Assembly: GCA_013265495.1 (NCBI GenBank)
Contig: MU057989.1
Coordinates: 248,001 to 312,000 of the forward strand
Origin: Vicugna vicugna
Taxonomy: Eukaryota
DNA: 64,000 nt
Direction of reading: 5' to 3'
Part shown: positions 5,679 through 51,381 of the stretch, in pieces
Layout of the letters: every line of letters starts with the position of its first letter
Numbering within the stretch: the first letter of the stretch is position 1
Made by a program: the position numbers and the translations under genes
Notes under the pieces: generated by a model
The model's input: the letters and a program-made list of their open reading frames with translations, nothing else
What the model was told of the DNA's origin: nothing
Databases searched by the model: none

Positions 5679-8600
5679 CTAGTACAGGGTCTCCCGCGCA
5701 TGCGTTCTCAGGTGGCGCAGGAGGTGGGAGTTGCGGCTAAAGCTCCGGCCACACTGCGTGCATGAGTAGGGCCTGGCTCCCGTGTGGACCAGCATGTGCC
5801 GCAGCAGATTGCAGCTGCGGCTGAAAATCTTGCCGCACTCCAGGCACTCCTGCGGGGGCTCAGCCTGCCCAGACCCGGACTCATCCCCTGCCCCTGCGTG
5901 GGTGGCCAGGTGTCGCTGCAGGTGGGCGTTGCGCCGGAAGCTCCGGCCGCACTTCTGGCAGCTGTATGGCCGCTCGCCAGTGTGGCTGCGGCGGTGGCGG
6001 GCCAGGTTGGAGCTGTTTCGGAAACGGTGGCCGCACGTGTCACAGATGTGGGGCTTCTCCCCGGTGTGGATGCGCTGGTGGCGCGCCAGGTGAGCGCTCT
6101 GGCTGAAGCCCTCGCCGCACTCGCTGCAGCGGCAGGGCTTCTCCCCTGTGTGACTGCGCCGGTGGCGGGCGAGGTCCTGGGTCTGGCTGAAGCTCTTGCC
6201 GCACTGGACGCAGTTGTGGGGCCTAGGGCCGCCGTGGGTCAGGAGGTGGCGGGCGAGGCCAGCCCGCCGCATGAAGCGCTTCCCGCAGTGCGGGCAGCTG
6301 TAGGGCCTCTCGCCCGTGTGCACCCGCTGGTGGCAGACCAGCTGGGAGCTCTGACTGAAGCTGCGGCCGCAGACCTGGCAGGAGAAGGGCCGCTCGCCGG
6401 TGTGCACGCGCCGGTGTGCCCCCAGGTGCTCGCTGCGCCGGAAAGCCTTGCCGCAGTCGCTGCACACATAGGGCCTGCGCTCAGGCCCCGGGTGCAGGCT
6501 GCCCGAGCACTCGGAGCACTGGTGGCCCTTGTCCTTGGCGTGGATTCGCAGGTGGCGCTTGAGGCTGGAGCGGCGCTGGAAGGTCTGGCCGCAGTGGGAG
6601 CACAGGACTACGGCCAGCTCCGGGGGCGCTTGAGTCTTGGTCTCCGGCGCGCACGAGGGCTTTTGGTCCTGGGCGTGCGCCAGGAGGTGCTGCATGAGGC
6701 TGGCCCGGCGCTGGAAGCCCTGGCCGCACTCGGCGCACAGGAAGGCAGGCTCAGAAGAGTGCGTCTGCAGGTGTTTGCTCAGATGCGAGCTCTGGCGGAA
6801 GCGGTGGCCACAGAGATGGCAGGTGTGCGGCCGCTCATCCGTGTGCGTGCGCATGTGCAGCTTGAGGATAGAGCTGCGGCCAAAGCTCTTCCCGCAACAC
6901 AAGCACAGGAAGGACCGCGCGCCGGGGTGAGACCGCAGCTGGTGCGCCTCCAGCCGGGAGAGCTGCGGGAAGCTCACCCCGCACTCTGTGCAGATGAACT
7001 TAATCTCCGGCTCTGACTTGGGGGTCCCTCCGGCCACTTTGACCTCGAGAACATCAGTCCTGCTCGGAGGGGACATTTCTCCACCCATGCGATCCACCTC
7101 AGGGCCCCGCCCAAGCGACTGGGTGTGGGGCTCTTCCGCCACCCTGGGACTGTCGGCCCAAGACTTTGCCGAGTTGGCAGTGGGCCAAGAAACCACTTTC
7201 TGCTCTTCTTCTTTAAACTCCTTGTCTGGGGTTCTGCTTCCAAATCCTGAGAAAGCAAAGAGTACCAGTCAGCCTTTTGGGGAGGGGCTTTTAAGAATCG
7301 CCAGAACCTCACTGCGTGGAGGCGGAAGAAACCCAGAATCCTGCAAAGTTGGTAGGAGGGCAGAGGGTGGGGGTAAAACCCAGTTATGTACAAGGTACTG
7401 TTTTAAGGTATGTAATTCAGGTCCATTAGGTATATTCATAATATTGTGCCACCATCACCACTATCTAGTGTCATCCTCCCAAACGGAAACATGCCTGTTA
7501 AGAGGCACTCCCGTTGACCACTTATTTTAAAAGCTCAGAGTTGTCAGGGTTGATGATTAAACTCAATGAACCTTAAAAATTGCATCTATATATCTATATA
7601 GATATAGGCATATCAATATATATCTGTATAGATATGTATCAATATTTGCCTCACCAAAATAGCCCATTTTTAGCCAAAGAGGCCGAAAAATCAGTTAGGG
7701 CCTGGAGTTTCAGGGACCACTCCAACAGGCAAAGGAAAAGTCTTCAGTGGTCATAAACCTGGGAAAAGGACCTCTTACCCAGAGGATGCACAGGCCAAGC
7801 CTTCTTTGCTGGAACATCTTCAAAGGTCAGGGACTCCTGTGACCAAAGGAGGGGAAGAGATTCTCAGTGAGTGAGGGACGAGGCCCTGGGATTTGAGGGG
7901 GATGAAGAACTTTCAAGGTTTAAATTAAGGAAGATGTGGATTTGCTAAAACTGCAGAGGCAGAGAACATTCCAGGCCATGAGATCTACCCTGAGTGAGGG
8001 GACCAGTCTGGCTCACCAGCACAGCTGCCAGCTCCTGATCTCCAGAGTTCTCCTCCGGCCACAGCTCAGGGCCCTGGGGGACTGACAGCACTGGGGGAGA
8101 AAGAAAGAGCTGTTAGAAGCCAGCCTTACCCACCATGCTGTTATGAGAATGTGCACACATGCACACCATCACCAGGGCCCCTCGACAGACATCTTGGCTC
8201 TCCCCCATTCCCGTCAGTTAGGGAGGATGCCCAATTCTCTCTGCACCCCCACGCACCTGGCCTCCCAGCTCCCACCAAACACCAGACCTGCACCTTCTGT
8301 AGGCACCAGCTCCTCACCGCTCTCCTGCAAGGCCTGCAACGTTCCCTTAGGACCTGGGCTCAATGGCTGCTTTGAACTTGGGGGACGTCTCCAGGCCCCC
8401 ATCTCTGCAGGCTTGGAGGGCCCTGACTGGGACAGCAGGAGTTCCTTTGCTGGTTCCAGGGCTGGAGGCCCTTCTGAAGGCACTTCCTTTTTGGGGCTGT
8501 GGCTGGAGACCTGGGAAGAGCCCCCCTGTTCCTCCAAGGTGATGTCTGCACGGGGATAGTTCTTGCCAGCATTAAAACTAAAATCCTGTCCAGAACACAT

Positions 8601-28100: not shown

Positions 28101-31100
28101 AGGAGGGGAGGACCAGAGACCGGCAGATGGCTGCGGCACTCCTCACTGCCTGGTCCCAGGTGAGTGTCCCCATCCAAGGCTGGAGGAAATGCCAAAGGAC
28201 AGGGAGGGACAGCGTCTCTGACTGAATTGTCCTTTGGATCCGAGCTCTGAACTTGAGGGAGGGGGCCAGAGGTCCTGAGCTCTGACCATGCTGCCCGAAA
28301 AGAACTCTTGTTTTTGTCTCTTGTCTTCTGCTGCACACAGTCGCTTTGCTTTTGCCCCTAAAAGAGCCTTCCTTGGGCAGCTGCCCTGCTTCACCATCAG
28401 ACCCGAGGACAGGCCTCACTCGAGTCAGCACGATGGGAGTCTGGGGTCTCGCCCATGTCTTGTCACCACCAGGCTCCTCCACCATGTCCTGGAGAGTGGG
28501 CATTTCATGTTGTTTCAGATGCCTGTGACCTTTGAGGACGTGGCTCTGTACCTCTCCCGTGAGGAGTGGGGACAGCTGGACCACACACAGCAGAGCTTCT
28601 ACAGGGATGTCCTGCAGAAGAGGAACGGGCTGTCCTTTGGTAAAGGCTCGCTTGTACTGGGGTGCTGCTGCCTGAGGTCCTGGGAAGTCAGAGGTGGACC
28701 CATCCTGCTGTCGCCTCTGCCTCCGTTTCCAGGGCTTACACCCCTTCTTGCTGTTCATCCAGACCTGGCTGTTGTAGAGAACCTTCCCAGTGATGGACAT
28801 GTTCTGTCCATGGATATGGTAGCCACCGGCCAGATGTGGCTACTGAGCCCTTGAAATGTATCTAGAGCAACTGAGTTTTTGTTTCATCTCATTTTAATCA
28901 GCTCAGACTTGAGCTGAAAATAGCCTCATGTGGCTAGTGGCCACTGTGTTGGACAGTGCGGACCTAGGGACCCTAATTCTCTTCAGTTCTCCCCTAGTGC
29001 TTATTCCTGGAGTTTCACCCCAGCCTCCTTCAAGCCCAGCTTCTGAAGTGTCTGAGCAGAAAGCTTGGCTCTGGAGTCAGGCTGCTAGCCTAGGGAGTCA
29101 GGAATGGTGCCAGCTAATCTCTCCTGGCCTTTGACTCTGAGATGTCCCATCTGCCCCAGGGCTGTGTCCTCTTCTCAGAGGGGCCCTGGCTCCCTCTATT
29201 TCTCTCATGGTAAGTAGTTTAGTCCCAGGGCTTTGACTTTGCAGTTCCAGGCTCTAGTTTCCATGGCAGAATTTTATGAGGGTGTATGGAAAAATCAGAG
29301 CGTTCATTCATTCATTGTCATTCTTTCAGTTAGTCAGTCTGTCGGTCAATGCACTTCTGTTGCCTACCTGCTAGTCCAGGCAGAGCCAGGGGCTTGGTCA
29401 GTCTACCCTTTGACTTTGATAGTGGGCCGAGACCCCTCACTGTCCCTGGTGGGCCCCAGGGTCACAGCAGCCGCCCTGCTTATGCCTTTAATTATCTCAG
29501 GTTGCTCACAACCCATTGTTAACACTCTCTGGGCCCCAGACCAGCAGGTCCAGGCAGGTCCTGGGAGATCAGAGGGAACTAGCACCCACTTGCAGCCCCA
29601 TGGCGGGCCTCATGAAAGCCCTAGACCGCCCAGTTGGTCCAAACATTCCTTCCCTCCCATGGGGGTTAGATCAGGGCATGGAGGCCAGGGCCCCTCTACT
29701 CTCTTCCTGACCTAGCCAGAATTTCTAGGCCTTCACTGTGGGGGACTTGGCAAACAGACCTTTGGTCTCTGACTTCTAGGCAGTCAGTGTCCCTAGCTGT
29801 CTTAGCCCAGGCCTTCCACTTGGCCTCTTTTTGCCCACTGTCCCTCCCCCAGTCCTTTCTGTCTGTGGTCTTGGAAAGGTGCAGGTACAGGAGAGGAAGA
29901 CAGTGTTTTGTTTCTGTCATTGCTGGGCCCACTCCTTGGGGCTGTGTGACATAAGGTGGTGGCCAGCAGCTGACCTGGCCCAGCCCCTCTCCCTTCAGTT
30001 CTCTTGCTTGTTCAGGGAAACAAGAGATTCCAGATGCAGCCCAGGAAGAGTGCATGTGGCAGTTACCCTGGAATGTGCATCCTAGAGAGGGGGTGGCCAC
30101 CTCTGCACCCCTTCTCCTTGTGCTCTATCACCTCTGGAGAGGGGGTGGGGGCATGGGGGAATCTCCTGCTTGCAGCCCAGAAGGGCCCTGACTGAGTGCA
30201 GCATCTCTTTCCAAGCAGGGTTTCCCTTCAGCAGACCTTTCTGGGCCTCTCAAGTGCAGGGCAAGGGCGAGGCCTCAAGCTCCAGCCGACAGACGGGAGA
30301 TGAGGAGAGGAGAGGTGTGTGCAGCAGTGACAGGTGGGCGGGCCCCGGGGCAGTGTGGTCATGGTTGTCACTCCCTTTGGTGCTCTTTGTCAGAGTGCTC
30401 TTTGTCAGAGTGCTCTCTGTTTCCCATGGTGCTCTTTGTCAGAGTGCTCTTTGTCAGAGTGCTCTCTGTTTCCCATGGGGTGCAGACACAGCCCTTCCTG
30501 GGGCAAGGCCACAGCCTCCCCTCCCCTGTAGAGGGTGGCTCTTCCGGGGTTCCCCACAGGTCCTGGCCCTTATCTCCACCTCCCAAATTCCCCTGAGTCC
30601 CTTGTGAAAGCCTTTCTCTTGCTGGAAACCCTCTTTATCCAGGAGCCATGGAGGTGGGGAAGGAGGAGCTGGCCCCATCTCTGGCAGCCCTCAGGGATGT
30701 GAAGTCCTTCAGAGGCAGGGTGGAGAGAGCCCAGGGGGACGCCCTGCAGTGCGGGCAGCCAGTGGCCAGCAGGCAGAGCCCAGGGCCAGCCAAAGACGGT
30801 GTGCAGCCCGCTCCCTTGGAGGAGGGACAGCCCAAACCAGCCCCGCCTGACAATGGCCTCCCAAAGGCCCAGGAGGGTGGCTTCCCAGAGCGACCCAGAA
30901 ACCAGGAGACCACCGCCCCTGAGAGCAGCGAGGAGGGCCTGGCTGTCGACGGCGACGCGGACAAGAAGACCTACACGTGCGAGCAGTGTGGCAAGGGCTT
31001 CAGCTGGCACTCCCACCTGGTGACACACCGGCGCACACACACGGGGGAGAAGCCCTACGCCTGCACGGACTGCGGCAAGCGCTTCGGCCGCAGCTCGCAC

Positions 31101-31709
31101 CTCATCCAGCACCAGATCATCCACACCGGCGAGAAGCCCTACACCTGCCCCTCCTGCTGGAAGAGCTTTAGCCACCACTCGACGCTGATCCAGCACCAGC
31201 GCATCCACACGGGCGAAAAGCCCTACGTGTGCGACCGCTGCGCCAAGCGCTTCACCCGCCGCTCGGACCTGGTCACCCATCAGGGCACCCACACGGGTGC
31301 CAAGCCACACAAGTGCCCCATCTGCGGCAAGTGCTTCACGCAGAGCTCGGCCCTCGTCACCCACCAGCGCACCCACACTGGGGTCAAGCCCTACCCATGC
31401 CCCGAGTGCGGCAAGTGCTTCAGCCAGCGCTCCAACCTCATCGCCCACAACCGCACGCACACCGGCGAGAAGCCCTACCACTGCCTCGACTGTGGCAAGA
31501 GCTTCAGCCACAGCTCGCACCTGACCGCCCACCAGCGCACCCACCGCGGGGTCCGGCCCTACTCCTGCCCGCTGTGCGGCAAGAGCTTCAGCCGCCGCTC
31601 CAACCTGCACCGGCACGAGAAGATTCACACGGCGGGGCCCAAGGCCCTGGCCATGCTGATGCTGGGGGCGGCCGGGGCGCTGGCCTCACCCCCACCAGCT
31701 CCCACCTAG
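25104..31709 (+). CDS. ZNF205: KRAB C2H2 zinc finger protein ZNF205; coding exons 25104-25160, 27561-27774, 28068-28159, 28519-28639, 30219-~30314, 30643-31709
   Basis: KRAB-A ([31 protein letters not shown]), 8 C2H2 fingers, C-terminus [24 protein letters not shown] matching human ZNF205; ATTAAA at 31881-31886. Exon 5 donor ambiguous. Confidence 0.95.
26830..27245 (-). mobile_element. MaLR (MLT1-like) LTR in ZNF205 intron
   Basis: ctgctgtaacaaa...accacaaactgggtggcttataacaaccagaatttatt...ttccaaataagg, a typical reverse MLT1. Confidence 0.75.
30380..30477. repeat. Nested tandem repeat: 49-bp unit x2, each with two 15-bp subunits
   Basis: (gtgctctttgtcaga)2 gtgctctctgtttcccatg repeated exactly twice. 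Confidence 0.95.
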
Positions 31710-39768: not shown

Positions 39769-42700
39769 ATGGCAGCCCCCCCAGAGCCTCAGGACCAGGC
39801 CCCTGGGGAGGGAGAAGGGCTTCTGATCGTGAAGGTAGAAGATTCCTCCTGGGAGCAGGACTCAGCCCAGCAAGAGGACAGCAGGGATTCAGAGGCCTGC
39901 CGCCAGCGCTTCCGGCAGTTCTGCTACGGCGATGCAGGCGGGCCCCATGAAGCCTTCAGCCAGCTCTGGGAGCTCTGCTGCCGCTGGCTGCGGCCCGAGC
40001 TGCACACCAAGGAGCAGATCCTGGAGTTGCTGGTGCTGGAGCAGTTCCTGAACGTGCTGCCTGTGGGCGTCCAGAGCTGGGTTTGCGAACGCTGCCCTGG
40101 GAGTGGCGAGGAAGCTGTTGCCTTGGTGGAGGACCTGCAAAAACAGCCAGAAGCTTGGCCACAGGTGAGGGGCTCCTTCCATATCCAGGGGCACCTGGAT
40201 GGCACCTGGACTGAGGAGAGGTGGCCATCTCTGTAGAGATTAGTCCTCCAGGGGTTGGGGGGATATGCAGAGCCAGAGGGAGCATCCACAGGAGCAGGTC
40301 ATAACGTGTTGCTTTTCTGAAAGACACTATCCAAGTGAATCTGGTTTCTTTTTGGTGGCTTTGGAGGGAAGCAGCAGGACCAAAGTGGGCATGTTCCAGG
40401 AAGGCAGGTTTTAGCTCCACCCAGGTTCTACAAAGTTTCATTTGTGTTCTGCTCTAGGCCAGACCCTGGGGATACAGTGATGTGTGTAGTGAGTGCACCA
40501 GAGGGGGTATCAGAAGGTAGAGCTGTCCCTGTGAACCCTGCTGTCTTATGGGGTGTGGGGTCCTCGACACTGGAGGCATCTGGGGAGATGCTAATGAGTG
40601 GCGGGTGAGTATAGGATTATACCCTTGACAGGAAGGTCTCCACCCACTGCCCCTCGCTAAGTGGCTCTTTGATTCTGAGCTTTGGGGGCTGGAGCTTGCT
40701 CATGCTTGGTTGGGGAGTGTCCCTGGGCACATAGCATCGCCTGGTGTCCCATTTTCTCTGGACTTTCCTTGGGCCCCATATTGATCTCCCCCACACCCCA
40801 ACATCCTGAGGGACGTGTCCTGTGTCTCCTTCCCAGGGATTAAACTCTGTCTCCCCCGTCTGGTCTCGGTGCTGATGAGCATGTTGTGGTTCCTGCACAG
40901 GACGTGCCCTCAGAGGAGGCGGAACCTGTGGCTACAGTCCAGGGATCCCAGGCCAAGGGACCTCCCCGGAAGGTAGGGGCACGGAGCCAGCCACCTGGAC
41001 CCTGGGAGCAGCACAGCCATGGTGGTGAGTAAGCTTGTAGGTCGCAGAGTAGCTGGTCAGGGGCCTGGCTCCTTTCCAGGCATTGCACTAAGGGTAGCAG
41101 GGTATTTCTGCTCCATGGAGGCGAAGTGTGCATGTGTGTGTGAAGCAGAGTGTGTGTGAGATCTCACTCCTGGCCTGGGCCTGCCTCTCTGAGGCTCCAT
41201 TCTTTTTTTTCAGCCCAACTACCTGCTCTTAAAAAGGGGAATGCCAGAGAGACAGCAGATACCTGCTTTGCCTCTGGGGTGAGTCACCAGTCCCTTTGTC
41301 CGTCGGATGCTGATGAGTCCCTAAAATGGGTCTTGCCTTCTCACTAAAGCTGCTTCTATCCATCATCCTGCCCAGATGCATCCCATTTCCCATCCCAGCC
41401 CCCTTCCTGTCTCCACCCATGACCGCCCGGGGAGTCCTGAGCAAGGCAGCCCTGAGCTGAGTTTTCTCACCTCATTCCAGGGACCTGTGACATTTGGAGA
41501 CATTCCCTTCTATTTCTCCCGGGAAGAATGGGGGTCCCTGGACCCTGCTCAGAGGGATCTCTTCTGGGACATAAAAAGGGAGAACTCCCGGAACCTTGCC
41601 CTGGGTAAGCAGTGGGCACAGCCAGGATCCTAGGGGTCCATGGCTCATCTGAGCTGGAGGCTGTTGCCTCCTTGGAGTCCCAGCAGCAGAGGGTGGGCCC
41701 AGGCACATCCTGCTGGAAACCTGTCTTCCTTCCTGCTTCTTCCTTAGCTGGCTCCAAAGAGGGCTTTCTCTGCCTCTCTTTGAGAGCCCCTAGAGGCTTC
41801 CTTTGTGCTGGCGTTCACTTCTCCCTGCCTGTGATCATGTATTAATATACGAGGAGTGCGTGCCACATGGCAGTGCCGTGCTCAGCTCTAGTACAGGCAT
41901 CTTCTCATGTGATTCTCACAACCTGGTGCATAGAAATGTGTGCACGTTTATAGATGAGGGACCCGAGACTCAGAGAGGTCAAAGGACACTGAAGGGCCAG
42001 AGCTGGGACTTAGTGCAAACAGTGCTTGTGAGGCCCCCTCAGCCAGCCCCTTGAAGATGCACTGACACACACCTGCCATGTGTTCATGGGCCCTGCTCAC
42101 TAGAGGCCACACTCCAGGGTCCCTCTCCAAGCCAGGGCCTTCCTAAGCACTGTTCGGGGATTATCTCATTTAATCCGCACAACCCAGTGGGATGGGTGGG
42201 ATCCCTCCCGATCCATCCTTGTGTGTTTTTGAGTTTAGAGGACAAGAGCTTGTATAATGAGAGAGACCATGTCAGCTGAGCCCGTGTGGTTCCTCAGTGT
42301 CTGATCATGAATGGTGAGAGTTTGGGTAATTTAGCGACTCCTCAAATCAATTCAGCTTTGAAGTTTGAACAGCCAGGGTTTGAAGTGGAACGTTGGATCC
42401 CAGTGTGGGAAGGAGGCATAGTTTGGGTAGACGTATAATTAGTGTCTCTGCTAAATAAGCCAAGCCCAACCCCTTGCCGCTTACTCTGAATGGTTTCTCT
42501 GTGGTCATTTTATCCTGTCCCCATTTTACAGAGCAGGAAGCTAAGGCTGGGGTCTGCAGGAGCTCAGGGCTGTGGGAACCTGAGCGCCAAGGCACTTTCC
42601 CCCAGCCCTGCTTTGGCCTCCCCTCAGCTCTGGCCCCAGAACCAAGCCCGACTGAAGAGGCCGCCTCTCCTCCGCTTGCAGGTTTGGGGCTCAAGGACCA

Positions 42701-43340
42701 AAGTGAGAGATCCCGGCTGCACGAGGTGGTGACAACGCTCCCGGGCCAGGTTGTTGGTGATGGGACTGTGTCCTGGAGACCCGAAGAAGCAGAGGCCTGG
42801 GAGGGCGAGGCCCGGCCGGGAGCGCCCCTAGGACGGGCGGCGGGGGCGCGGCGCGGGCGGCCACCCACCCGCCGGCGGCAGTTCCGGGACCTGGCGTCGG
42901 AAAAGCCGCACAGCTGCGGCCAGTGCGGCAAGCGCTTCCGCTGGGGCTCCGACCTGGCGCGCCACCAGCGCACACACACGGGCGAGAAGCCGCACAAGTG
43001 CCAGGAGTGTGACAAGAGCTTCCGCAGCTCCTCGGACCTGGTGCGCCACCAGGGCGTGCACACGGGCCAGAAGCCCTTCTCCTGCTCCGAATGCGGCAAG
43101 AGCTTCAGCCGCAGCGCCTACCTGGCGGACCACCAGCGCATCCACACGGGCGAGAAGCCCTTCGGCTGCAGTGACTGCGGCAAGAGCTTCTCGCTGCGCT
43201 CCTACCTGCTGGACCACCGGCGCGTGCACACGGGTGAGCGGCCCTTCGGCTGTGGCGAGTGTGACAAGAGCTTCAAGCAGCGCGCCCACCTCATTGCCCA
43301 CCAGAGCCTGCACGCCAAGATGGCCCAGCCCGTGGGGTGA
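39769..43340 (+). CDS. ZNF213: SCAN-KRAB C2H2 zinc finger protein ZNF213, 455 aa; coding exons 39769-40164, 40901-41024, 41214-41278, 41481-41604, 42682-43340
   Basis: SCAN domain, degenerate KRAB ([30 protein letters not shown]), 5 C2H2 fingers ending HAKMAQPVG as in human ZNF213. Exons total 1368 nt in frame. Confidence 0.96.
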
Positions 43341-45453: not shown

Positions 45454-48400
45454 ATGGCATTCCTGGTGGCTGGGACCCTGCGGGTGGCCTCACAGATGGC
45501 AGATACTTGGGAGAGCCTGGGAAGAAAGGTAGTTGGGGGCACTGCCTGACCCAGCCCATCCCTGGCTCCCAGCGGAGACCCACCCTAGCCCAACTCTGGC
45601 CTTATCTCCCCAGGGCAAGTACAGCATGCAGGGTCCAAGGGTAGCCCTGCTGCTCAGCAGCCCTGAAGTATCGGCCTCTACAGTCACCGTCCTGGAGGGT
45701 GTGTTCCAGACCCTGGGCTTTGAAAGCTGCCAGAGGAGGGAGGCCTCAGTCCAGGTGAGCCCACTCCGGCCTCCCCTCTCCACTCCCAGCCCCACGTGGG
45801 GCCTCCCTGGACTCAGGCCCAGCACTCGCTCTTGCCCTAGGGCTTCCAGTGGGAGCTGGTGAGGTTCCGGGAGCAGCTGGATGCCCATGGGGGCCCTGTG
45901 GGCTGTGCTTTTGTGGCCTTGGTGGCCCCCAGCCAGCAGCTGAGACAGCCACAGCAGCTAGTCCAGGAGCTGAGCCGCTGTGGGGCCCTGTATGGCTGCC
46001 CCAAAGTCTTCCTGCTGCTCTCCAGCGCTCCTGGGGGTGAGTGGGCTGGGCAGGGACCCTGCCTGTGGGGCGCGGCAAAGCCAGGGCGGAGATGGGCAGG
46101 AGGGCCAAGACCCTCCCTCCAGACCAATGCACTGCTTCTCCACCCAGCTGCCTCTGAGCCCGGAGCCTTCCTCACCAGCCTGGGTGAGCTCTGTGGCCGC
46201 TGTCCTCACTGGTCCCTGATGCAGCTGCTGACGGAGGTGAAGTTTCCAGAAAGGGAGTCCCAGGGAGGGGGGCTGCACCGGTCACTTCCCCTGGCTCTGC
46301 TGTGTGGTCCTGAACCCGTTGCTCCCCACCCATCCACTCCATGACGTAAGCCTTTATTGTCCACACGTGGGTGTCAGCTTCAAAGCCTCACCTCCTACCC
46401 CCACCCCTGCCCCTCCTCACAACCCACTCAGGATCCCCCGGACATTCCAGTATCTTCTCAGCTCCATGCCTTTACCCAAGCTGCTCCTTTGGTTTTCGTG
46501 CCCTCCCTGTCGTCCCATCTCCACTCAGTCCCTTCCAGGCTGGCAGCAATGCTGTTCCTCGCCATGCTTGAGTCAACACTTGTCTTCCCATCCACCCTTG
46601 TTCACACTCACCCAGCAGTGACTGGCCCATCAGACTTGGGGCCCCTGGGGGCCAGGGTTGGGGGTCATTGAGGCTTGGTCCCAAGGCCCAAAGGTCTCAC
46701 TGGGAAGTGGGGTGGTCACTGGGTGACCTTGAGGTGAGGAGTGGGCCCAGCCTGGTGCCCTCCCCCGGCGATGCCCTCCTGTGAGACTTCCTGGACAGGT
46801 CCACCTCTGTGGGCCGGGGAGCAGTGTGGTCAATGGTATGGCCACAGTCCTCCAAAGCTGTTTATGTCCTAAGAATCCAATGATGAGTTGAGCCTGGACT
46901 AGGACACCCTCAGGCCCTACCTTTCCTTCATCTGTGTCCTCCTCCCTTCATTCTGGCAGGGGACCCCAGAAAGAATGTGGTAGTCATGAGCATATGACGA
47001 CCACTCGGGGAGCCAGGGTCCTGCTCCCCCACGCCCCCATAACCATACCCCATGGAGCAGCTGCCTGAGGAGTCCTCTGGCCCATCCTCCCCAGGTCTTC
47101 TGCAGGACTGCTGAAGAGTCCTCAGGGGCTGCCTACTGCCCGGTCCTTCGGAGCTCCTTGCGGGGGGCCCTGTGCCTAGGGGATGTGGAGCCCTGGGGGC
47201 CAGAGGTGAGGGGGCAAGACAGGGGACCAACCACATGACAGTAGTTTTGAGTGGGATAGAGGCTCGGGGAGACTTGAGGTGGGGAGGTGAGGAGCTGGGA
47301 GGGCCTCAGATCACTCTGAATCAACCTTAACCCTGTCTGTAGCCAGAACCCAGCCCCAGTGCTCAGTATGACCTGTCCGGGGCCCGGGCTGCCCTCCTCC
47401 TGGCTGTGATCCAGGGCCGGCCTGGAGCCCAGCATGATGTGGAGGCACTGAGGGGCCTGTGCCAAGCCCTGGGCTTCGAGACCACCCTGAAGATGGACCC
47501 TCTAGCCCAGGTGAGGGGATATCCAGTACTTCTGGTGGTGCCCTGAATGATGGGCGCCCCCCACCAGGACCCGCTCCTGGGCCTCTTGCCAATCATAGGC
47601 AGGAAGTGCACCCCGAAGTCTAGCCTCCACTCTCCCTGCTGTGTGCTTTGGGAACCCACTTCCCTGCCTCTGGAAGCACAGAGGCCTCCCATGCTTGCCG
47701 TTTCTCTGCACCCCTGCTCCCAGCCCTCACTGGACCCTCAGGCTTTTCTGGGAGGGTCTCAGGTTCCTTCCCAGACATCTGTCAGCTCACTGCCTCCCTT
47801 CACACCTCTTTACTTTTTGGTGCAGCTTCTCCTCCGGGGCCAGAGAACCAGCTGCAGGAGGCTGGAGCCACATGTCACCTCCTATGAGGCCATGCCAGGC
47901 CTTGCAGCAGGGAGGTTAGAAAAAAGACTTGCTCCCTGGGCCTGAGGCTGGCAGGAGGTGGAAGGCAGTGTGGGCAGTGGGCTAGAAAAACCACCTGGAG
48001 GGAGGACCACCAGGCACCAGGGAGGCAGTGGCCCTGGCCCAGGCCTCCATCTCTCCCCCAGGCTTTCCAGGAGGAGATGGCCAAGTTCCGGGAGCAGCTG
48101 GACGCTCGCAAGGTCCCTGTGAGCTGTGCGCTTGTGGCCCTGATGGCCCATGGTGGGCCTCAGGGACAGCTACTGGGGGCTGATGGGCAAGAGGTGCAGC
48201 CAGAGGTGCTGGTGCAGGAGCTGAGCCGCTGTGGGGCCCTGGTTGGCTGCCCCAAGATCTTTCTGCTTCAGGCTTGCCGTGGAGGTGAGCAGGGTCTGGG
48301 GCCTGGCGGGGTCCAGCTGCTCTCATTCTCCTCATCCAGCCTCAGTCTCCTCCAGGAAGCCTGAGCACCACCCTCTCCCTGCCCCCTCTGCCAGCTTCTC

Positions 48401-50558
48401 CCAGAGGTCAAGTCTGTGAACTAGAGCACTTCACCCTCTGCGCTTGTCCTTCAGTGCTCTGAATGTTTCCAGCCTGGCAGGGCTGCCCAGGAACTCTGGG
48501 GCCTAGGGGTGAGAGACCTGGGAGCACCCCAGGTGTCTTCTGAGTGAAAAGACCTGACTGTCCCTTCCTGCCCCAGGGCACAGGGATGCAGGCATGGGGC
48601 CCACTGCTCTCCCTTGGTTCTGGCGCTGGCTGCGGGCTCCACCAGCCACCCCTTCACAAGCCGATATCCTCCAGATCTATGCTGATGTGCAAGGTGGGTC
48701 TGCCTTCCTCCCAGAGCCTGAGCTTGGGCAGGGCTGGCGCAGGCAGCCATCTGGAGAGCATCTCCAAGGCTCTGAGCTGAGATTCTGCCACCACCTCCTT
48801 CCTCTCTTCGCCAAGAGGATAGGAAGGAAAACCTTTCTAAATGGCAAAGGCTTTTGAAAATTGAGGATTTCTTCCCCTGCATGAGCCCCCAAACAACCCT
48901 GGAGACAGGAAGGTGAAATAGCTTTTCTGAGATCACATGGCTGATAAGCATCAGGGCTGAGATTGGAAACTTGATCCGTCTTTCCTGCCCTGCTCTCTTT
49001 CTCCTGCCTTGTGTGTCCTTGAGTCAGACCCGAGGAGACCCTTGGGGCTAGCAGAGTCCCAGGATGCTGCGTAAATGGAGTTGGTCCCTCTTGCAGGCAG
49101 CTTCCCCAGGGGCCCCATTCCAGGGAGCTCTGACCAAGCAGACATCCTGATGGTCTACGCAGCAGCTGAAGGTAAGGGGACAGGTCAGCAAGAAGTCTTG
49201 TTACATGGGGCCCAGCCTCCTGGTCAGAGATCGAAAGTGGGCTTTAGGGGCATCTGGGGCTTGGCTGTTGGGGTGGAGGGGCCCCAGCCTAGATGCAGTT
49301 AAGCCATCTTCCCTTTGTGTTTATTATTTATGGTAAAAGAAATGATGGTGAGCACTAAGGGCTGACTCTGCTAAGCACTATACCTGCATCCTTCCCTCTA
49401 GACTGTAAATTCCATGCGAGCAGGACAGTTCTGTGTGTCTCAGGGCACCGTCCAGGGCCCGGCACATAGTAGGTTCACAGTGAATGTTTCTTCAATACTG
49501 AATCCATTGTATATTCACTCCACAAATATTGAGCAACTACTTGTTCCAGAAGCAAGAAGTTTCAACTCCCTGCCCCATTCCCTGGCCTGATTCCCAGGGT
49601 CCTGTGGGCTTGACCCCACTTCCACCAACAATAGGCCCCTGGGAGTTGGAAGGCAGCTGGGAGGGGCCCAAGTCTGATGCTCTGGCCCTGGTCCTCTGGC
49701 CTAGGCTGTGTAGCCTATCGGGATGAAAAGGGCTCAGACTTTATCCAGACGCTGGTGGAGGTCCTCAGAGCTGACCCCAGGGGAGACCTCCTGGAGCTGA
49801 TGACTGAGGTGAGTTGGGGGTGGGGGGTGACAACCTGAGGAGAGGAGCTAGATTCATCCTTCTCCCCAGCCCTGGCGTTCTAATCACCTATTCACTTCAT
49901 CACTGAGGGAGGGATCCTCCACCCTCAGTAGCATGAGATGGTTGGGCACAGGACACCCGGCACTGGACAGGTGAGATTGACAGCAGTTATTAGCCATATA
50001 TACTCACAGCCGGAAGAGGAGGACACCTCAGGCCATGCAGAGCCAGTAGGGGTTGCTCTGGAGAGCAGAGTGAACCTGCAGGGGCTTCCTTTTAGGCTTT
50101 GTAGTAACTAGGAATGAGGTGCCCCTGGTTCCTGCAGGAGGATGTGATGCACTTGTTTGAATAATTTCACAGGCTGACAGGGAACTGAAGACCCTCAGGC
50201 TGAGGACTGAGTGGAGTGCAGCTGGTCTGTCTGGTGGGGGAAATAGCGCAGTGGGGTGCCCTTCCTGCTTGGGGTAGGGAGCACATCTGACAAGAGGAGG
50301 GGAAACCAAGGGGGGGCCTATGAAACTCAAAGTTGTCAAGGAAGCACTTCAAATTTTAGGCCTTACAATACACTGGGTGCCAGGCTGGGCTGGGCGCCGG
50401 GGGATCTGGCAGGCCTGCGTACAGGCTAAGTGTGGTCCGCACAGGTCAATCGGCAGGTGTGTGAGCTGGAGGTGCTGGGTCCCGACTCTGACGAGCGCCG
50501 CAAGGCCTGTCTGGAGATCCGCAGCTCCCTGAGGCGCCGGCTCTGTCTGCAGTCCTGA
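45454..50558 (+). CDS. CASP16: Caspase-16, intact 470 aa; exons 45454-45528, 45614-45754, 45841-46036, 46148-46236, 47095-47205, 47343-47510, 48062-48284, 48577-48693, 49097-49171, 49705-49808, 50445-50558
   Basis: Kozak accaccATGG; all GT-AG introns with compatible phases, 1413 nt. Catalytic His (AHG, 48149-48151) and QACRG (48269-48283); caspase-14-like VAYRDEKGSDFIQTL. Syntenic with human CASP16P; AATAAA at 50690-50695. Confidence 0.9.
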
Positions 50559-51381
50559 CTGCGCCTGCCGCCACCCAGGAAGTGCTGACAGTGAGTGGCC
50601 ACAGACCAACGCCACTACTGACCCCATCCACTCCTTGGTTTCCTCATCTAAAAATGGGCGCGATAGCACAGGTGACTCAGCTGGTATGAAATAAACATGA
50701 TGATCGCTGTATACGTGAATAGTGCCTGTTCTCTGGGAGGTGCGACAGTAAGTGAGATAATGTATGCAAAGTGCCTGGCACTTCGGAGGCTGGGCCCACC
50801 GGGTGTGGACTGGGGAGGAAGCGAGGAGGAGCGCGGGCAGCATCCGCGCCTCAGAAACCCATCATGGGCTGCTAGGCTGAGCTGGATGTCCTGGGAAGGG
50901 GCAGCCTGGGGTCCATATTGTCCTTCCCGCACACGCACCCCACCTGCACCCCACGCTGGGGCCACGCGACACTCTGGCCTCTGCCTACATGGTAGTCAGA
51001 ATCCAGTCTGGGGCCACAAGACTGGAACAGATCATGGAAGATTTAGCAGTGCTGTGATGGGGCAGCAAAGGGGCTAGGGGAGCAGTGGGGAGCACCTGAT
51101 CCAGCGCGGCCCTGGAGCAGGTCGGGGAAGATATCTGGAGCTTCTCGGGACAGGAGTGGCTTGGGTAGCCTCACCCAGGCTCGAACTCCCAGAAACAGAC
51201 CACTTACGCATCCTTCACTAGCAGCGGGCGCTCTGTCCAGCTCGGCAGCCCAGCGCGGAGTCCAGCCCACACAGAACTCGAGGGGCAGGGCGCCTGGTTA
51301 CCAGGAGCATGCGCATTAGGGCATGTCTAGCGGGTGCCAGAGTATGCTTTATGAGAAAAGCCATAACGCTGTTTGCCGCAG

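What the first reader, a model, noticed from the sequence alone, without database searches (positions are those of the whole stretch)
45614..50558. Single-chain pseudo-caspase plus active caspase: the N-terminal half of CASP16 is a dead copy of the entire caspase fold
Seen: exons 2-5 mirror exons 6, 7, 10 and 11 in sequence and intron phase (0-0, 0-1, 1-0, 0). The pairs are KYSMQGPRVALLL/QYDLSGARAALLL, FREQLDAHGGPVGCAFVALVAPS/FREQLDARKVPVSCALVALMAHG, KVFLLLSSAPG/KIFLLQACRGG, GAFLTSL..LMQLLTE/GSDFIQTL..LLELMTE and LRSSLRGALCL/IRSSLRRRLCL. The N-terminal copy lacks the catalytic His and Cys, both S1 arginines and the intersubunit linker exon(s), yet keeps large- and small-subunit parts including the final strand that forms the caspase dimer interface. 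Known: caspases activate by dimerisation, cFLIP-L is a pseudo-caspase partner of caspase-8, and caspase-16 has been described with a caspase-like prodomain. Inference: one chain could fold as a built-in pseudo-heterodimer that activates or restrains the protease without a CARD/DED platform.
Basis: partly seen in the sequence, partly recalled or inferred. Interest (0 to 1): 0.85.

Follow-up and report, generated by a model that had tools for sequence, protein, structure and literature searches.

The report
Camelid caspase-16 with dead twin domain
This is an intact camelid copy of the caspase-16 gene, whose front half is a dead duplicate of its own protease domain, an architecture already published in 2025, so the main finding is real but not new.

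Summary
Window 45454-50558 (+) holds an 11-exon, 470-codon open gene with GT-AG at all 10 introns. Its residues 255-470 are identical to the alpaca protein named 'putative caspase-16'. Exons 2-5 mirror exons 6, 7, 10 and 11 in sequence and phase. The N half lacks the catalytic His and Cys and both S1 arginines.

It is already known. Eckhart et al. 2025 (PMC12198278; Results, Discussion and one supplement search read) report the same exon homologies, the loss of the dyad, the exon 8/9 duplication, a caspase-14-dimer-like model and the caspase-8/FLIP(L) comparison.

One correction: the N half is not an entire caspase fold. It has no counterpart of exon 9, which encodes core strand beta5.

One possibly new point: the exon-8 copy of beta5 is predicted to fill that empty slot. 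ESMFold2 gave ipSAE 0.92 against 0.00 for the best of 3 controls, and the peptide touches beta4' and beta6'. A natural exon-8-less isoform drops AF2 pTM from 0.79 to 0.56.

Function is untested. No dN/dS or RNA evidence was obtained.

The parts
45454..45528 (+). Exon 1 (residues 1-25): start codon in ACCACCATGG context; short leader that is nearly invariant in placentals and has no counterpart in the C half
   Evidence: In A1, 16 of its 25 positions are at least 90% conserved. AF2 pLDDT is 32-35. There is no similarity to exon 8 or 9 (z -1.4 and 1.2).
45614..45754 (+). Exon 2 (residues 26-72), phase 0-0: N-domain beta1, alpha1 and beta2; copy of exon 6; the S1 arginine segment is missing
   Evidence: z 9.1; E34-40, H46-58, E63-68.
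45841..46036 (+). Exon 3 (residues 73-138), phase 0-1: N-domain alpha2, beta3, alpha3 and beta4; copy of exon 7. The 10-residue His loop is deleted and Ser stands at the Cys position
   Evidence: (z 29.5). The koala still keeps the His loop.
46148..46236 (+). Exon 4 (residues 139-167), phase 1-0: N-domain alpha4; copy of the helix part of exon 10; lacks the '...AYRD...' segment that carries the second S1 arginine
   Evidence: z 6.5; H142-155.
47095..47205 (+). Exon 5 (residues 168-204), phase 0-0: N-domain alpha5 and final strand beta6' (residues 185-195 at 47146-47178), followed by the Pro/Glu-rich link to the C half; copy of exon 11
   Evidence: 1 of 2000 shuffles. S188, L189, R190, G191 and L193 are invariant in 33 of 33 sequences.
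47343..47510 (+). Exon 6 (residues 205-260), phase 0-0: catalytic-domain beta1, alpha1 and beta2, with S1 arginine R230
   Evidence: PF00656 sub-threshold at 12 bits; R in 32 of 32.
48062..48284 (+). Exon 7 (residues 261-335), phase 0-1: catalytic-domain alpha2 to beta4, with His290 (48149-48151) and the QACRG cysteine Cys332 (48275-48277)
   Evidence: PF00656 at 29.8 bits against a cut-off of 21.4; H, Q and C in 32 of 32. It is 100% identical to the alpaca 'putative caspase-16'.
48577..48693 (+). Exon 8 (residues 336-374), phase 1-1: invariant Arg-Asp-x-Gly after the active site, a conserved Trp-rich motif, and then a duplicate of beta5
   Evidence: e8/e9 z 8.9; R337, D338, G340, W348 and L353 invariant.
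48657..48683 (+). The beta5' strand within exon 8 (residues 362-370), predicted to insert between beta4' and beta6' of the N half
   Evidence: E364-369; block pLDDT 70, flanked by stretches below 50. (lowest-error contacts 128:366, 129:366, 187:366, 188:365). (entropy 0.58 against 1.00 and 1.24 in the flanks). (pTM 0.56 without exon 8).
49097..49171 (+). Exon 9 (residues 375-399), phase 1-1: variable linker and then the catalytic domain's own beta5
   Evidence: aligns to the caspase-8 '...ADFLLG...' strand; E389-394; D389, L391 and Y394 invariant.
49705..49808 (+). Exon 10 (residues 400-433), phase 1-0: L3 segment with S1 arginine R404, then alpha4 and the start of alpha5
   Evidence: R in 32 of 32.
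50445..50558 (+). Exon 11 (residues 434-470 plus TGA): alpha5, a hairpin and the final strand beta6
   Evidence: (E457-460).
50690..50695 (+). AATAAA, the first polyadenylation-signal hexamer, 132 nt after the stop codon
   Evidence: Sequence only; its use was not tested.

Best explanation
This is the intact CASP16 orthologue of a camelid.

SHOWN:
- The gene has 11 exons and 470 codons.
- The C half (residues 205-470) is a complete caspase domain with the His-Cys dyad and the S1 Arg/Gln/Arg residues.
- The N half (residues 26-196) is an internal duplicate of that domain. It has lost the His loop, the Cys and both S1 arginines, and it has no beta5.
- Exon 8 is a tandem duplicate of exon 9, which encodes beta5.
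- The N copies of placentals and the koala form one clade, separate from all C copies.

PREDICTED:
- Both halves pack as one rigid body, a single-chain pseudo-dimer.
- The chain is interlocked. It runs through the N half, then the large-subunit part of the C half, then back into the N half as strand beta5' (exon 8, residues 362-370, between beta4' and beta6'), and finally through the small-subunit part of the C half.

INFERRED:
- Caspase active sites are ordered by dimerisation (established knowledge of the family). A built-in dead partner would therefore give a one-site enzyme that needs no CARD, DED or PYD platform.
- Control would then come from expression, exon-skipping isoforms, or cleavage in the linker, for example after the invariant Asp338.
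For: Identity:
- Exon 7 is 100% identical to the alpaca 'putative caspase-16' P0097 and 97% to Camelus proteins.
- P0097 equals model residues 255-470 letter for letter.
- The model aligns end to end, 1-470, with 470-residue orthologues including chimpanzee CASP16 P0063.

Catalytic half:
- PF00656 is found in 6 of 6 orthologues or isoforms scanned (E 1e-28 to 1e-39).
- VIA-align gives Z 26-28, rmsd 1.7-2.9 A, to caspase-7, -9, -8 and -3 over residues 202-470.
- The catalytic and S1 residues are present in 32 of 32 orthologues.

Duplication:
- The N|C split in the tree has support 1.0, with the koala included.

Constraint on the N half:
- Per-site entropy correlates with that of the homologous C positions (Spearman 0.34, p 6e-6; the best of 162 circular shifts reaches 0.21).
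- Predicted strands are more conserved than coil (entropy 0.55 against 0.86).
- The N half's relative rate is 1.26, against 0.85 and 0.60 for the two parts of the C half.

One rigid body:
- AF2 pTM is 0.79 with 96 of 470 residues below pLDDT 50.

Beta5' complementation:
- ESMFold2 was run on four chains (N half, p20-like part, p10-like part, exon-8 peptide). ipSAE was 0.92 in 3 of 3 runs, and the best of 3 controls was 0.00, including the control in which the N half was replaced.
- This mark was reached by 51 of 78 solved complexes and 2 of 108 mismatched pairs.
- The runs agree in at least 61% of contacts, and the partner's pLDDT is 49-50.
- Peptide residues 360-371 touch N-half residues 124-133 and 183-190.
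- The exon-8 strand is an island of conservation within a variable linker.
- AF2 of the natural exon-8-less pangolin isoform P0099 gives pTM 0.56, and pLDDT for residues 181-190 falls from 76 to 51.
Against: - Everything structural is prediction. No coordinates could be inspected, and the beta6-beta6' contact was not scored.
- The tool states that its calibration does not cover peptides or four-chain jobs, that the partner's own fold is uncertain (pLDDT under 50), and that likeness to solved caspase folds can produce a pass.
- The two AF2 models compared are of different species (cattle and pangolin), each from one run on a shallow alignment. The five models' mean pLDDT ranged from 56.5 to 73.2.
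- Pfam does not recognise the N half on its own. 0 of 3 N-half exons scanned give a hit. Only 1 of 6 whole proteins, the koala, shows a second stretch.
- The N half evolves about 1.5 to 2 times faster than the catalytic parts.
- Annotation pipelines predict isoforms without exon 5 (12 of 120 listed proteins), exon 6 (13), both (5) or exon 8 (3 lacking exon 8 alone, plus 1 that also lacks exon 1). This would be odd for an obligatory interlocked fold.
- No RNA or protein evidence from this species was obtained, and no dN/dS.
Confidence: 0.6

Rival explanations
1. The fold is the same, but the sign is opposite. The dead N half occupies the dimer interface and holds the catalytic half in a latent, zymogen-like state until the linker is cut or a partner displaces it.
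For: - The 334-361 loop after the active-site Cys is long and of low confidence in both predictions.
- R337, D338 and G340 directly after QACRGG are invariant in 33 of 33 sequences, as expected of a processing site.
- The review states that the mechanism of activation is unknown and that no experiments exist (passages).
- From recalled knowledge, FLIP(L) can inhibit as well as activate caspase-8.
Against: - No conserved Asp lies between the N and C halves. Only W201 and P203 are at least 90% conserved in residues 196-212, so removal as a prodomain by a caspase is unlikely.
- In the one solved analogue that appeared in the fold search (3h11, zymogen caspase-8 with the c-FLIP(L) protease domain), the heterodimer is described in the literature as activating (paper's Discussion).
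Confidence: 0.2
2. The halves pair between molecules rather than within one. Either the C halves homodimerise as in ordinary caspases, or N of one chain pairs with C of another, giving dimers or chains.
For: - Eckhart et al. name intermolecular homodimerisation as their alternative scenario.
- Only about 15 residues link beta6' to the start of the C half.
- Three of the five AF2 models were clearly less confident (mean pLDDT 66.1, 59.7 and 56.5).
Against: - AF2 places both halves of one chain in one rigid body (pTM 0.79).
- The exon-8 strand, tethered by roughly 20-30 residues on either side within the C half, is predicted to sit inside the N half. This favours pairing in cis.
Confidence: 0.12
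3. The N half is a decaying relic of an old duplication with no role. It is kept in frame only because it lies upstream of a useful protease domain.
For: - It is the fastest-evolving large partition (relative rate 1.26).
- Pfam does not detect it.
- Predicted isoforms often skip exon 5 or exon 6.
- CASP16 is a pseudogene in human, mouse, platypus, guinea pig and cetaceans.
Against: - The N half is open and gap-free in 29 of 41 database proteins of 455-481 residues, with no deletion over 6 or insertion over 8 residues against the model.
- 32 of its 179 columns are invariant across 32 mammals.
- Conservation tracks predicted strands and the homologous C-half positions.
- Positions where N and C are still identical are much more conserved than the rest (entropy 0.40 against 0.97).
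- It has been retained since before the marsupial-placental split.
Confidence: 0.05

Closest known systems
Caspase-16 (CASP16) as described by Eckhart, Sachslehner, Steinbinder & Fischer, J Mol Evol 2025 (PMC12198278), and in the review PMC12292325
   Same: - Same gene and same 11-exon plan and phases.
- Same homologies: exons 2 and 3 to exons 6 and 7, and exons 4 and 5 to exons 10 and 11.
- Same loss of the dyad in the N half and same exon 8/9 duplication.
- Same proposed intramolecular pseudo-dimer and same comparison with FLIP(L).
   Different: - This is a camelid orthologue. Whether that paper's species table lists one was not checked.
- In the database the alpaca protein is annotated only as a 216-residue C-terminal piece.
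- The papers call exons 8 and 9 'intersubunit linker' exons. Their main texts do not contain the word 'strand' (0 occurrences each).
- Here exon 9 is read as beta5, the N half as lacking beta5, and exon 8 as its predicted replacement.
- The review dates the exon 8/9 duplication to placental mammals. The koala P0080 and the echidna sequence printed in the paper's supplement both carry two copies.
Caspase-8 with c-FLIP(L), a pseudo-caspase heterodimer (PDB 3h11)
   Same: A catalytically dead caspase-fold paralogue pairs with a live one and gives a dimer with a single active site. The 3h11 caspase-8 chain matches the C half at Z 27.0, rmsd 2.1 A, over 200 residues.
   Different: - Those are two separate polypeptides brought together by death-effector domains.
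- Here there is one chain. Pfam finds no DED, CARD or PYD in the 6 proteins scanned.
- The dead half here lacks a core strand.
- The beta6-type interface was not scored here.
Caspase-14, the closest paralogue according to the paper
   Same: The catalytic domain is of the caspase-14-like clade. Many database orthologues carry the automatic name 'caspase-14-like'.
   Different: Caspase-14 has no prodomain and only one linker/beta5 exon. No caspase-14 sequence was compared here.
Separase, with a pseudo-protease domain next to an active caspase-like protease domain in one chain (recalled knowledge; only a search listing was seen)
   Same: It is a single polypeptide in which a dead caspase-like domain packs against the live one.
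   Different: It is a different clan member in a giant regulatory protein. It is not a recent internal duplication, and no comparison was run here.

Membership tests
Caspase, peptidase family C14A (C half, residues 205-470) | Match to Pfam PF00656 above the gathering score | tested here: met
   The window's exon 7 alone scores 29.8 bits against a cut-off of 21.4. 6 of 6 orthologues or isoforms score 99.6-133.9 bits.
Caspase, peptidase family C14A (C half, residues 205-470) | His-Gly and Gln-Ala-Cys-x-Gly catalytic motifs | tested here: met
   The window translation has '...MAHGG...' and '...QACRGG...'. H290, G291, Q330 and C332 are present in 32 of 32 orthologues.
Caspase, peptidase family C14A (C half, residues 205-470) | S1 pocket arginines (Arg179 and Arg341 in caspase-1 numbering; the numbering is recalled) | tested here: met
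   R230 and R404 are present in 32 of 32 orthologues. They align to the corresponding caspase-8 segments.
Caspase, peptidase family C14A (C half, residues 205-470) | Caspase alpha/beta fold | tested here: met
   Foldseek E 1e-14. VIA-align Z 26-28 to caspase-7, -9, -8 and -3 over residues 202-470 of the bovine orthologue's model.
Caspase, peptidase family C14A (C half, residues 205-470) | Cleavage after aspartate | not testable with these tools
   The review states that no experimental study of any caspase-16 exists.
CASP16 orthologue group | Best similarity to named caspase-16 proteins over the full length | tested here: met
   Model residues 255-470 equal the alpaca 'putative caspase-16'. 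The model aligns 1-470 with chimpanzee CASP16 at 78.5% and cattle at 84%.
CASP16 orthologue group | Eleven exons with duplicated-domain phases, as published | tested here: met
   compared with the description.
CASP16 orthologue group | ZNF213 on the 5' side (the paper's synteny criterion) | tested here: inconclusive
   A C2H2 zinc-finger ORF lies at 42459-43340 (+), 2.1 kb upstream. The search meant to name it was run on longer proteins only and returned many-finger proteins, so its identity is not shown.
Caspase fold (N half, residues 26-196) | Homology to a bona fide caspase domain | tested here: met
   hhalign of N profile against C profile gives 99.9%, E 5e-35. BLASTP gives E 1e-27.
Caspase fold (N half, residues 26-196) | Recognised by Pfam PF00656 on its own | tested here: not met
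   Exons 2, 3 and 5 give 0 families at E up to 1. In 5 of 6 whole proteins only the C half matches.
Caspase fold (N half, residues 26-196) | Complete six-stranded core sheet encoded in the domain itself | tested here: not met
   There is no counterpart of exon 9 (beta5). AF2 shows five strands: 34-40, 63-68, 94-101, 126-133 and 184-187. The slot is predicted to be filled by exon 8 from elsewhere in the chain.
Caspase fold (N half, residues 26-196) | Structural match of the N half alone to solved caspases | not tested
   All 50 listed VIA-align rows cover residues 201-470 only. The N half was not folded by itself.
FLIP(L)-type pseudo-caspase partner | Dead caspase domain that pairs with a live one through the beta6 interface | tested here: inconclusive
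   AF2 pTM of 0.79 implies one rigid body. The exon-8 peptide lying in the N half also touches C-half residues 435, 439 and 455 near alpha5 and beta6. The N-C interface itself was not scored.
FLIP(L)-type pseudo-caspase partner | Separate protein recruited by tandem death-effector domains | tested here: not met
   It is a single chain, and no DED, CARD or PYD family was found in the 6 proteins scanned.

The most novel reading that the evidence does not exclude
Caspase-16 is not simply a pseudo-caspase followed by a caspase. It is an interlocked single-chain pseudo-dimer. The dead N half is an incomplete five-stranded domain. The tandem duplicate of the beta5 exon (exon 8), which lies inside the catalytic half's intersubunit linker, threads back to supply the missing strand. 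The two exon duplications would then be functionally coupled. The N half could not be shed as a prodomain. Cutting the linker would leave the two halves held together non-covalently. I found no mention of this in the main texts of the two caspase-16 papers ('strand' occurs 0 times in each). Of the 13 library papers that hold both 'caspase-16' and 'strand', the 10 listed do not include either caspase-16 paper.
Probability: 0.55. Interest if true: 0.55.

Novelty: already known. Interest (0 to 1): 0.3.

Why it matters
Caspase-16 is the only vertebrate caspase reported with a second caspase domain. It is intact in most mammals but dead in human and mouse, so almost nothing is known about it.

The finding itself adds a camelid orthologue to a published picture. 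It also shows that the alpaca annotation (216 residues) misses more than half of the protein.

If the strand-complementation reading holds, it explains why two separate exon duplications coexist in this gene. It also predicts how constructs must be designed, because a 'prodomain-deleted' enzyme would carry an orphan strand. Finally, it gives a natural model of a single-chain, one-site caspase dimer, something that is otherwise engineered.

Tried and rejected
- Reads on the gene: nothing was laid, so the exon model has no RNA support from this species. The run listing showed only small shares (0.05-0.17) in runs on record or guessed as RNA. Unlaid, these are no evidence of expression.
- ESM Atlas search with residues 26-204 of P0098: the best hits were the protein's own CASP16 clusters, which carry PF00656 because of their C halves. 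This says nothing about the N half.
- Foldseek and VIA-align on the whole model: only the C half is covered, so the N half's fold was not compared with solved structures.
- My first idea was that the conserved exon 1 supplies the missing strand. It has no similarity to exon 8 or 9, and AF2 gives it a low-confidence helix in the full-length model. It forms a low-confidence strand (residues 9-15, pLDDT 25-39) only when exon 8 is absent. I dropped the idea.
- Naming the upstream zinc-finger ORF: the search covered only proteins longer than 514 residues and was swamped by many-finger proteins. No conclusion.
- dN/dS: no orthologous coding DNA is reachable with these tools. Protein-level rates and entropy were used instead.
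- Earlier notes of this scan: nothing on this place. The two notes returned concern bacterial dead caspase-like proteins and did not affect the reading.
- Paper search for 'CASP16': it returned the structure-prediction contest of that name.

Full report
WHAT IS THERE

The window is mammalian DNA (GC 40-64%). On the + strand between 45454 and 50558 I could splice 11 exons, with GT at all 10 donors and AG at all 10 acceptors. They give a 1413-nt reading frame of 470 codons. The start codon sits in an ACCACCATGG context. The first AATAAA lies 132 nt after the stop. The introns measure 85 to 858 nt.

Exon 7 translated alone finds 182 proteins at E 0.001 or better among 210 candidates. It is 100% identical to the alpaca protein named 'putative caspase-16' and 97% identical to two Camelus ferus proteins. 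The alpaca record (216 residues) equals residues 255-470 of my model letter for letter. The model aligns from residue 1 to 470, without gaps, to 470-residue orthologues such as cattle (394 of 470 identical) and chimpanzee CASP16. The gene is therefore the CASP16 orthologue of a camelid, and it is intact.

I could not obtain read-level RNA support for the exon model. It rests on the splice sites and on the orthologues.

THE OBSERVATION

- Residues 1-204 against 205-470 give 48% identity over 118 residues (E 1e-27), plus a second segment of 33% over 58 residues (E 2e-4).
- Each claimed exon pair beats its shuffles: at most 1 of 2000 shuffles reaches the observed score, whereas six mismatched pairs are reached by 114 to 1963 of 2000.
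- With 33 orthologues aligned (A1), the N-half profile matches the C-half profile at hhalign probability 99.9%, E 5e-35, over 172 columns.
- In 32 orthologues (P0073 dropped for a different C-terminus), R230, H290, Q330, C332 and R404 are present in 32 of 32 C halves. The N half has gaps at R230, H290 and R404, Leu in 30 of 32 at the Gln position, and Ser in 28 of 32 at the Cys position.

ONE CORRECTION

The N half is not a copy of the entire fold. In the HMMER alignment to caspase-8, the segment encoded by exon 9 aligns to the '...ADFLLG...' strand that opens the small subunit. AF2 makes it a strand at 389-394. The N half has no counterpart of exon 8, exon 9 or the first eight or so residues of exon 10. 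AF2 gives the N half five strands (34-40, 63-68, 94-101, 126-133, 184-187), in caspase order but with beta5 missing.

IT IS ALREADY PUBLISHED

Eckhart et al., J Mol Evol 2025 (PMC12198278), is the key paper. I read its abstract, Results and Discussion and searched its supplement. It describes:
- the 11-exon gene;
- the homology of exons 2 and 3 with exons 6 and 7, and of exons 4 and 5 with exons 10 and 11;
- the loss of the dyad in the prodomain;
- the duplication of the linker exon;
- a model resembling a caspase-14 homodimer;
- the comparison with the caspase-8/FLIP(L) heterodimer;
- intermolecular dimerisation as the alternative.

The review PMC12292325 (passages) repeats this. It also says that no experiment on caspase-16 exists.

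WHAT THE TOOLS ADD: THE FOLD

AF2 of the bovine orthologue with A1 gives mean pLDDT 73.2 and pTM 0.79. Residues 30-195 are at about 80-89 and residues 211-330 at about 90. 96 of the 470 residues are below pLDDT 50, so a pTM of 0.79 is about what one rigid body of all the ordered residues would give. AF2 therefore places the two halves confidently against each other. The C half matches caspase-7, -9, -8 and -3 at Z 26-28 (Foldseek E 1e-14). The N half alone was not compared with solved structures.

WHAT THE TOOLS ADD: CONSTRAINT

I had no orthologous DNA, so there is no dN/dS. The protein-level evidence is as follows.
- The N half is the fastest large partition (relative rate 1.26, against 0.85 for the p20-like part and 0.60 for the p10-like part).
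- Its site-by-site conservation follows that of the homologous C-half positions (Spearman 0.34, p 6e-6; the best of 162 circular shifts reaches 0.21).
- Its predicted strands are more conserved than its coil (entropy 0.55 against 0.86).
- Positions still identical between N and C are far more conserved than the rest (0.40 against 0.97). This and the two points above come from one search, which left out the koala and P0087.
- All 32 N halves, koala included, form one clade apart from all C halves (support 1.0). The duplication therefore predates the marsupial-placental split.

This is the pattern of a folded domain under constraint, not of a neutral relic.

WHAT THE TOOLS ADD: THE MISSING STRAND

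Exon 8 is a tandem copy of exon 9 (z 8.9). AF2 turns its copy of beta5 into a strand at 364-369, with block pLDDT 70 between two stretches below 50. I asked whether this strand fills the empty slot of the N half.

The test was an ESMFold2 job on four chains cut from P0098: N half 26-204, p20-like 205-335, p10-like 375-470, and the exon-8 peptide 336-374 as the scored partner.
- ipSAE was 0.92 in 3 of 3 runs, and the best of 3 controls was 0.00.
- One of those controls kept the peptide and replaced the N half.
- The tool's mark was reached by 51 of 78 solved complexes and 2 of 108 mismatched pairs.
- The runs agree in at least 61% of contacts, and the partner's pLDDT is 49-50.
- Peptide residues 360-371 touch N-half residues 124-133 (beta4') and 183-190 (beta6'), as well as helices on both faces. 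The lowest-error pairs are 128:366, 129:366, 187:366 and 188:365.
- A few contacts go to 435, 439 and 455 of the p10-like chain, and none is listed to the p20-like chain.

This places the strand in the beta5 position.

Two further observations agree.
- The strand (362-370) is an island of conservation, with entropy 0.58 against 1.00 and 1.24 in its flanks (four rows were dropped).
- AF2 of a natural pangolin isoform without exon 8 (P0099, 431 residues) keeps mean pLDDT at 72.2, but pTM falls to 0.56 and pLDDT of residues 181-190 falls from 76 to 51.

Caveats:
- The tool says that peptides and four-chain jobs lie outside its calibration, and that likeness to solved folds can produce a pass.
- The two AF2 models are of different species, and each is from a single run.
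- I could not see coordinates.

I rate this reading at about 0.55.

TOPOLOGY AND MECHANISM (INFERRED)

The chain would run through the N half, then the large-subunit part of the C half, then back into the N half as beta5', then through the small-subunit part of the C half. Because the two halves of a caspase dimer are related by a two-fold axis (established knowledge), a strand running 'down' through the partner is a natural return path from the end of beta4 to the start of beta5.

The result would be a single-chain, one-site pseudo-dimer that needs no recruitment domain. Pfam finds none in the 6 proteins scanned. R337, D338 and G340, directly after the active-site motif, are invariant in 33 of 33 sequences and are a candidate processing site. 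No Asp is conserved between the halves, so the N half is unlikely to be removed like a prodomain. Whether the dead half activates or restrains the enzyme is open.

POINTS THAT DIFFER FROM THE PAPERS

The review dates the exon 8/9 duplication to placental mammals. However, the koala protein P0080 has both copies, and the echidna sequence printed in the paper's supplement also shows two. That echidna protein begins with a segment resembling exon 5 ('...FRSSLRGMLCLG...'), although the paper says the prodomain is not conserved in the echidna. The N half may therefore be older than the therian ancestor, or the echidna gene model may be incomplete. The koala and opossum N halves still keep the His-bearing loop that placentals have deleted.

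VERDICT

The finding is real, well above chance, correctly interpreted in outline, and already known. The window adds a camelid orthologue whose public annotation covers less than half of the protein. The only possibly new element is the predicted strand complementation by exon 8, which needs coordinates or an experiment to confirm.

Noticed in passing
window 45454-45528 (exon 1): The 25-residue leader is among the best-conserved parts of the protein: 16 of its 25 positions are at least 90% conserved in 33 orthologues. It has no counterpart in the C half. AF2 gives it pLDDT 32-35. An exon-1-like start is also printed for the opossum. Its role is unknown.
   Followed up: partly
window 48577-48656 (first part of exon 8, residues 336-361): A Trp-rich motif ('...LPWFWRWL...'; W348 and L353 invariant) and an invariant Arg-Asp-x-Gly directly after QACRGG sit in a loop that both predictors leave at low confidence. 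They are candidates for a processing site and a loop-bundle element.
   Followed up: no
database proteins P0001-P0120: Of the 120 listed relatives, 39 hold all 11 exons. 13 lack exon 6, 12 lack exon 5 (including Camelus ferus isoform X2, P0002), 5 lack both, 3 lack exon 8 only and 2 lack exon 9 only. These are annotation-pipeline isoforms, and their reality and abundance are unknown.
   Followed up: partly
P0097 against window 47493-50558: The alpaca record named 'putative caspase-16' has 216 residues and starts at the Met of residue 255 inside exon 6. The public annotation therefore misses the whole N half and the first strand of the catalytic domain.
   Followed up: yes
P0080 (koala) residues 70-90; opossum sequence in the supplement of PMC12198278: Marsupial N halves keep the His-bearing loop ('...LLAHSE...LLGPDG...') that placental N halves have lost through a 10-residue deletion. 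The Cys is already gone. The dead domain therefore decayed stepwise.
   Followed up: partly
echidna CASP16 as printed in the supplement of PMC12198278: The printed protein starts with an exon-5-like final-strand segment and carries both beta5 copies. Both duplications therefore seem to predate the monotreme split. This is earlier than the review's 'placental mammals', and it is at odds with the statement that the prodomain is not conserved in the echidna.
   Followed up: partly
window 5679-7268 (-), 30597-31709 (+), 42459-43340 (+): Three long C2H2 zinc-finger ORFs, with 10, 7 and 4 finger matches. The last lies 2.1 kb upstream of CASP16, where the paper places ZNF213. Its identity was not established.
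   Followed up: partly
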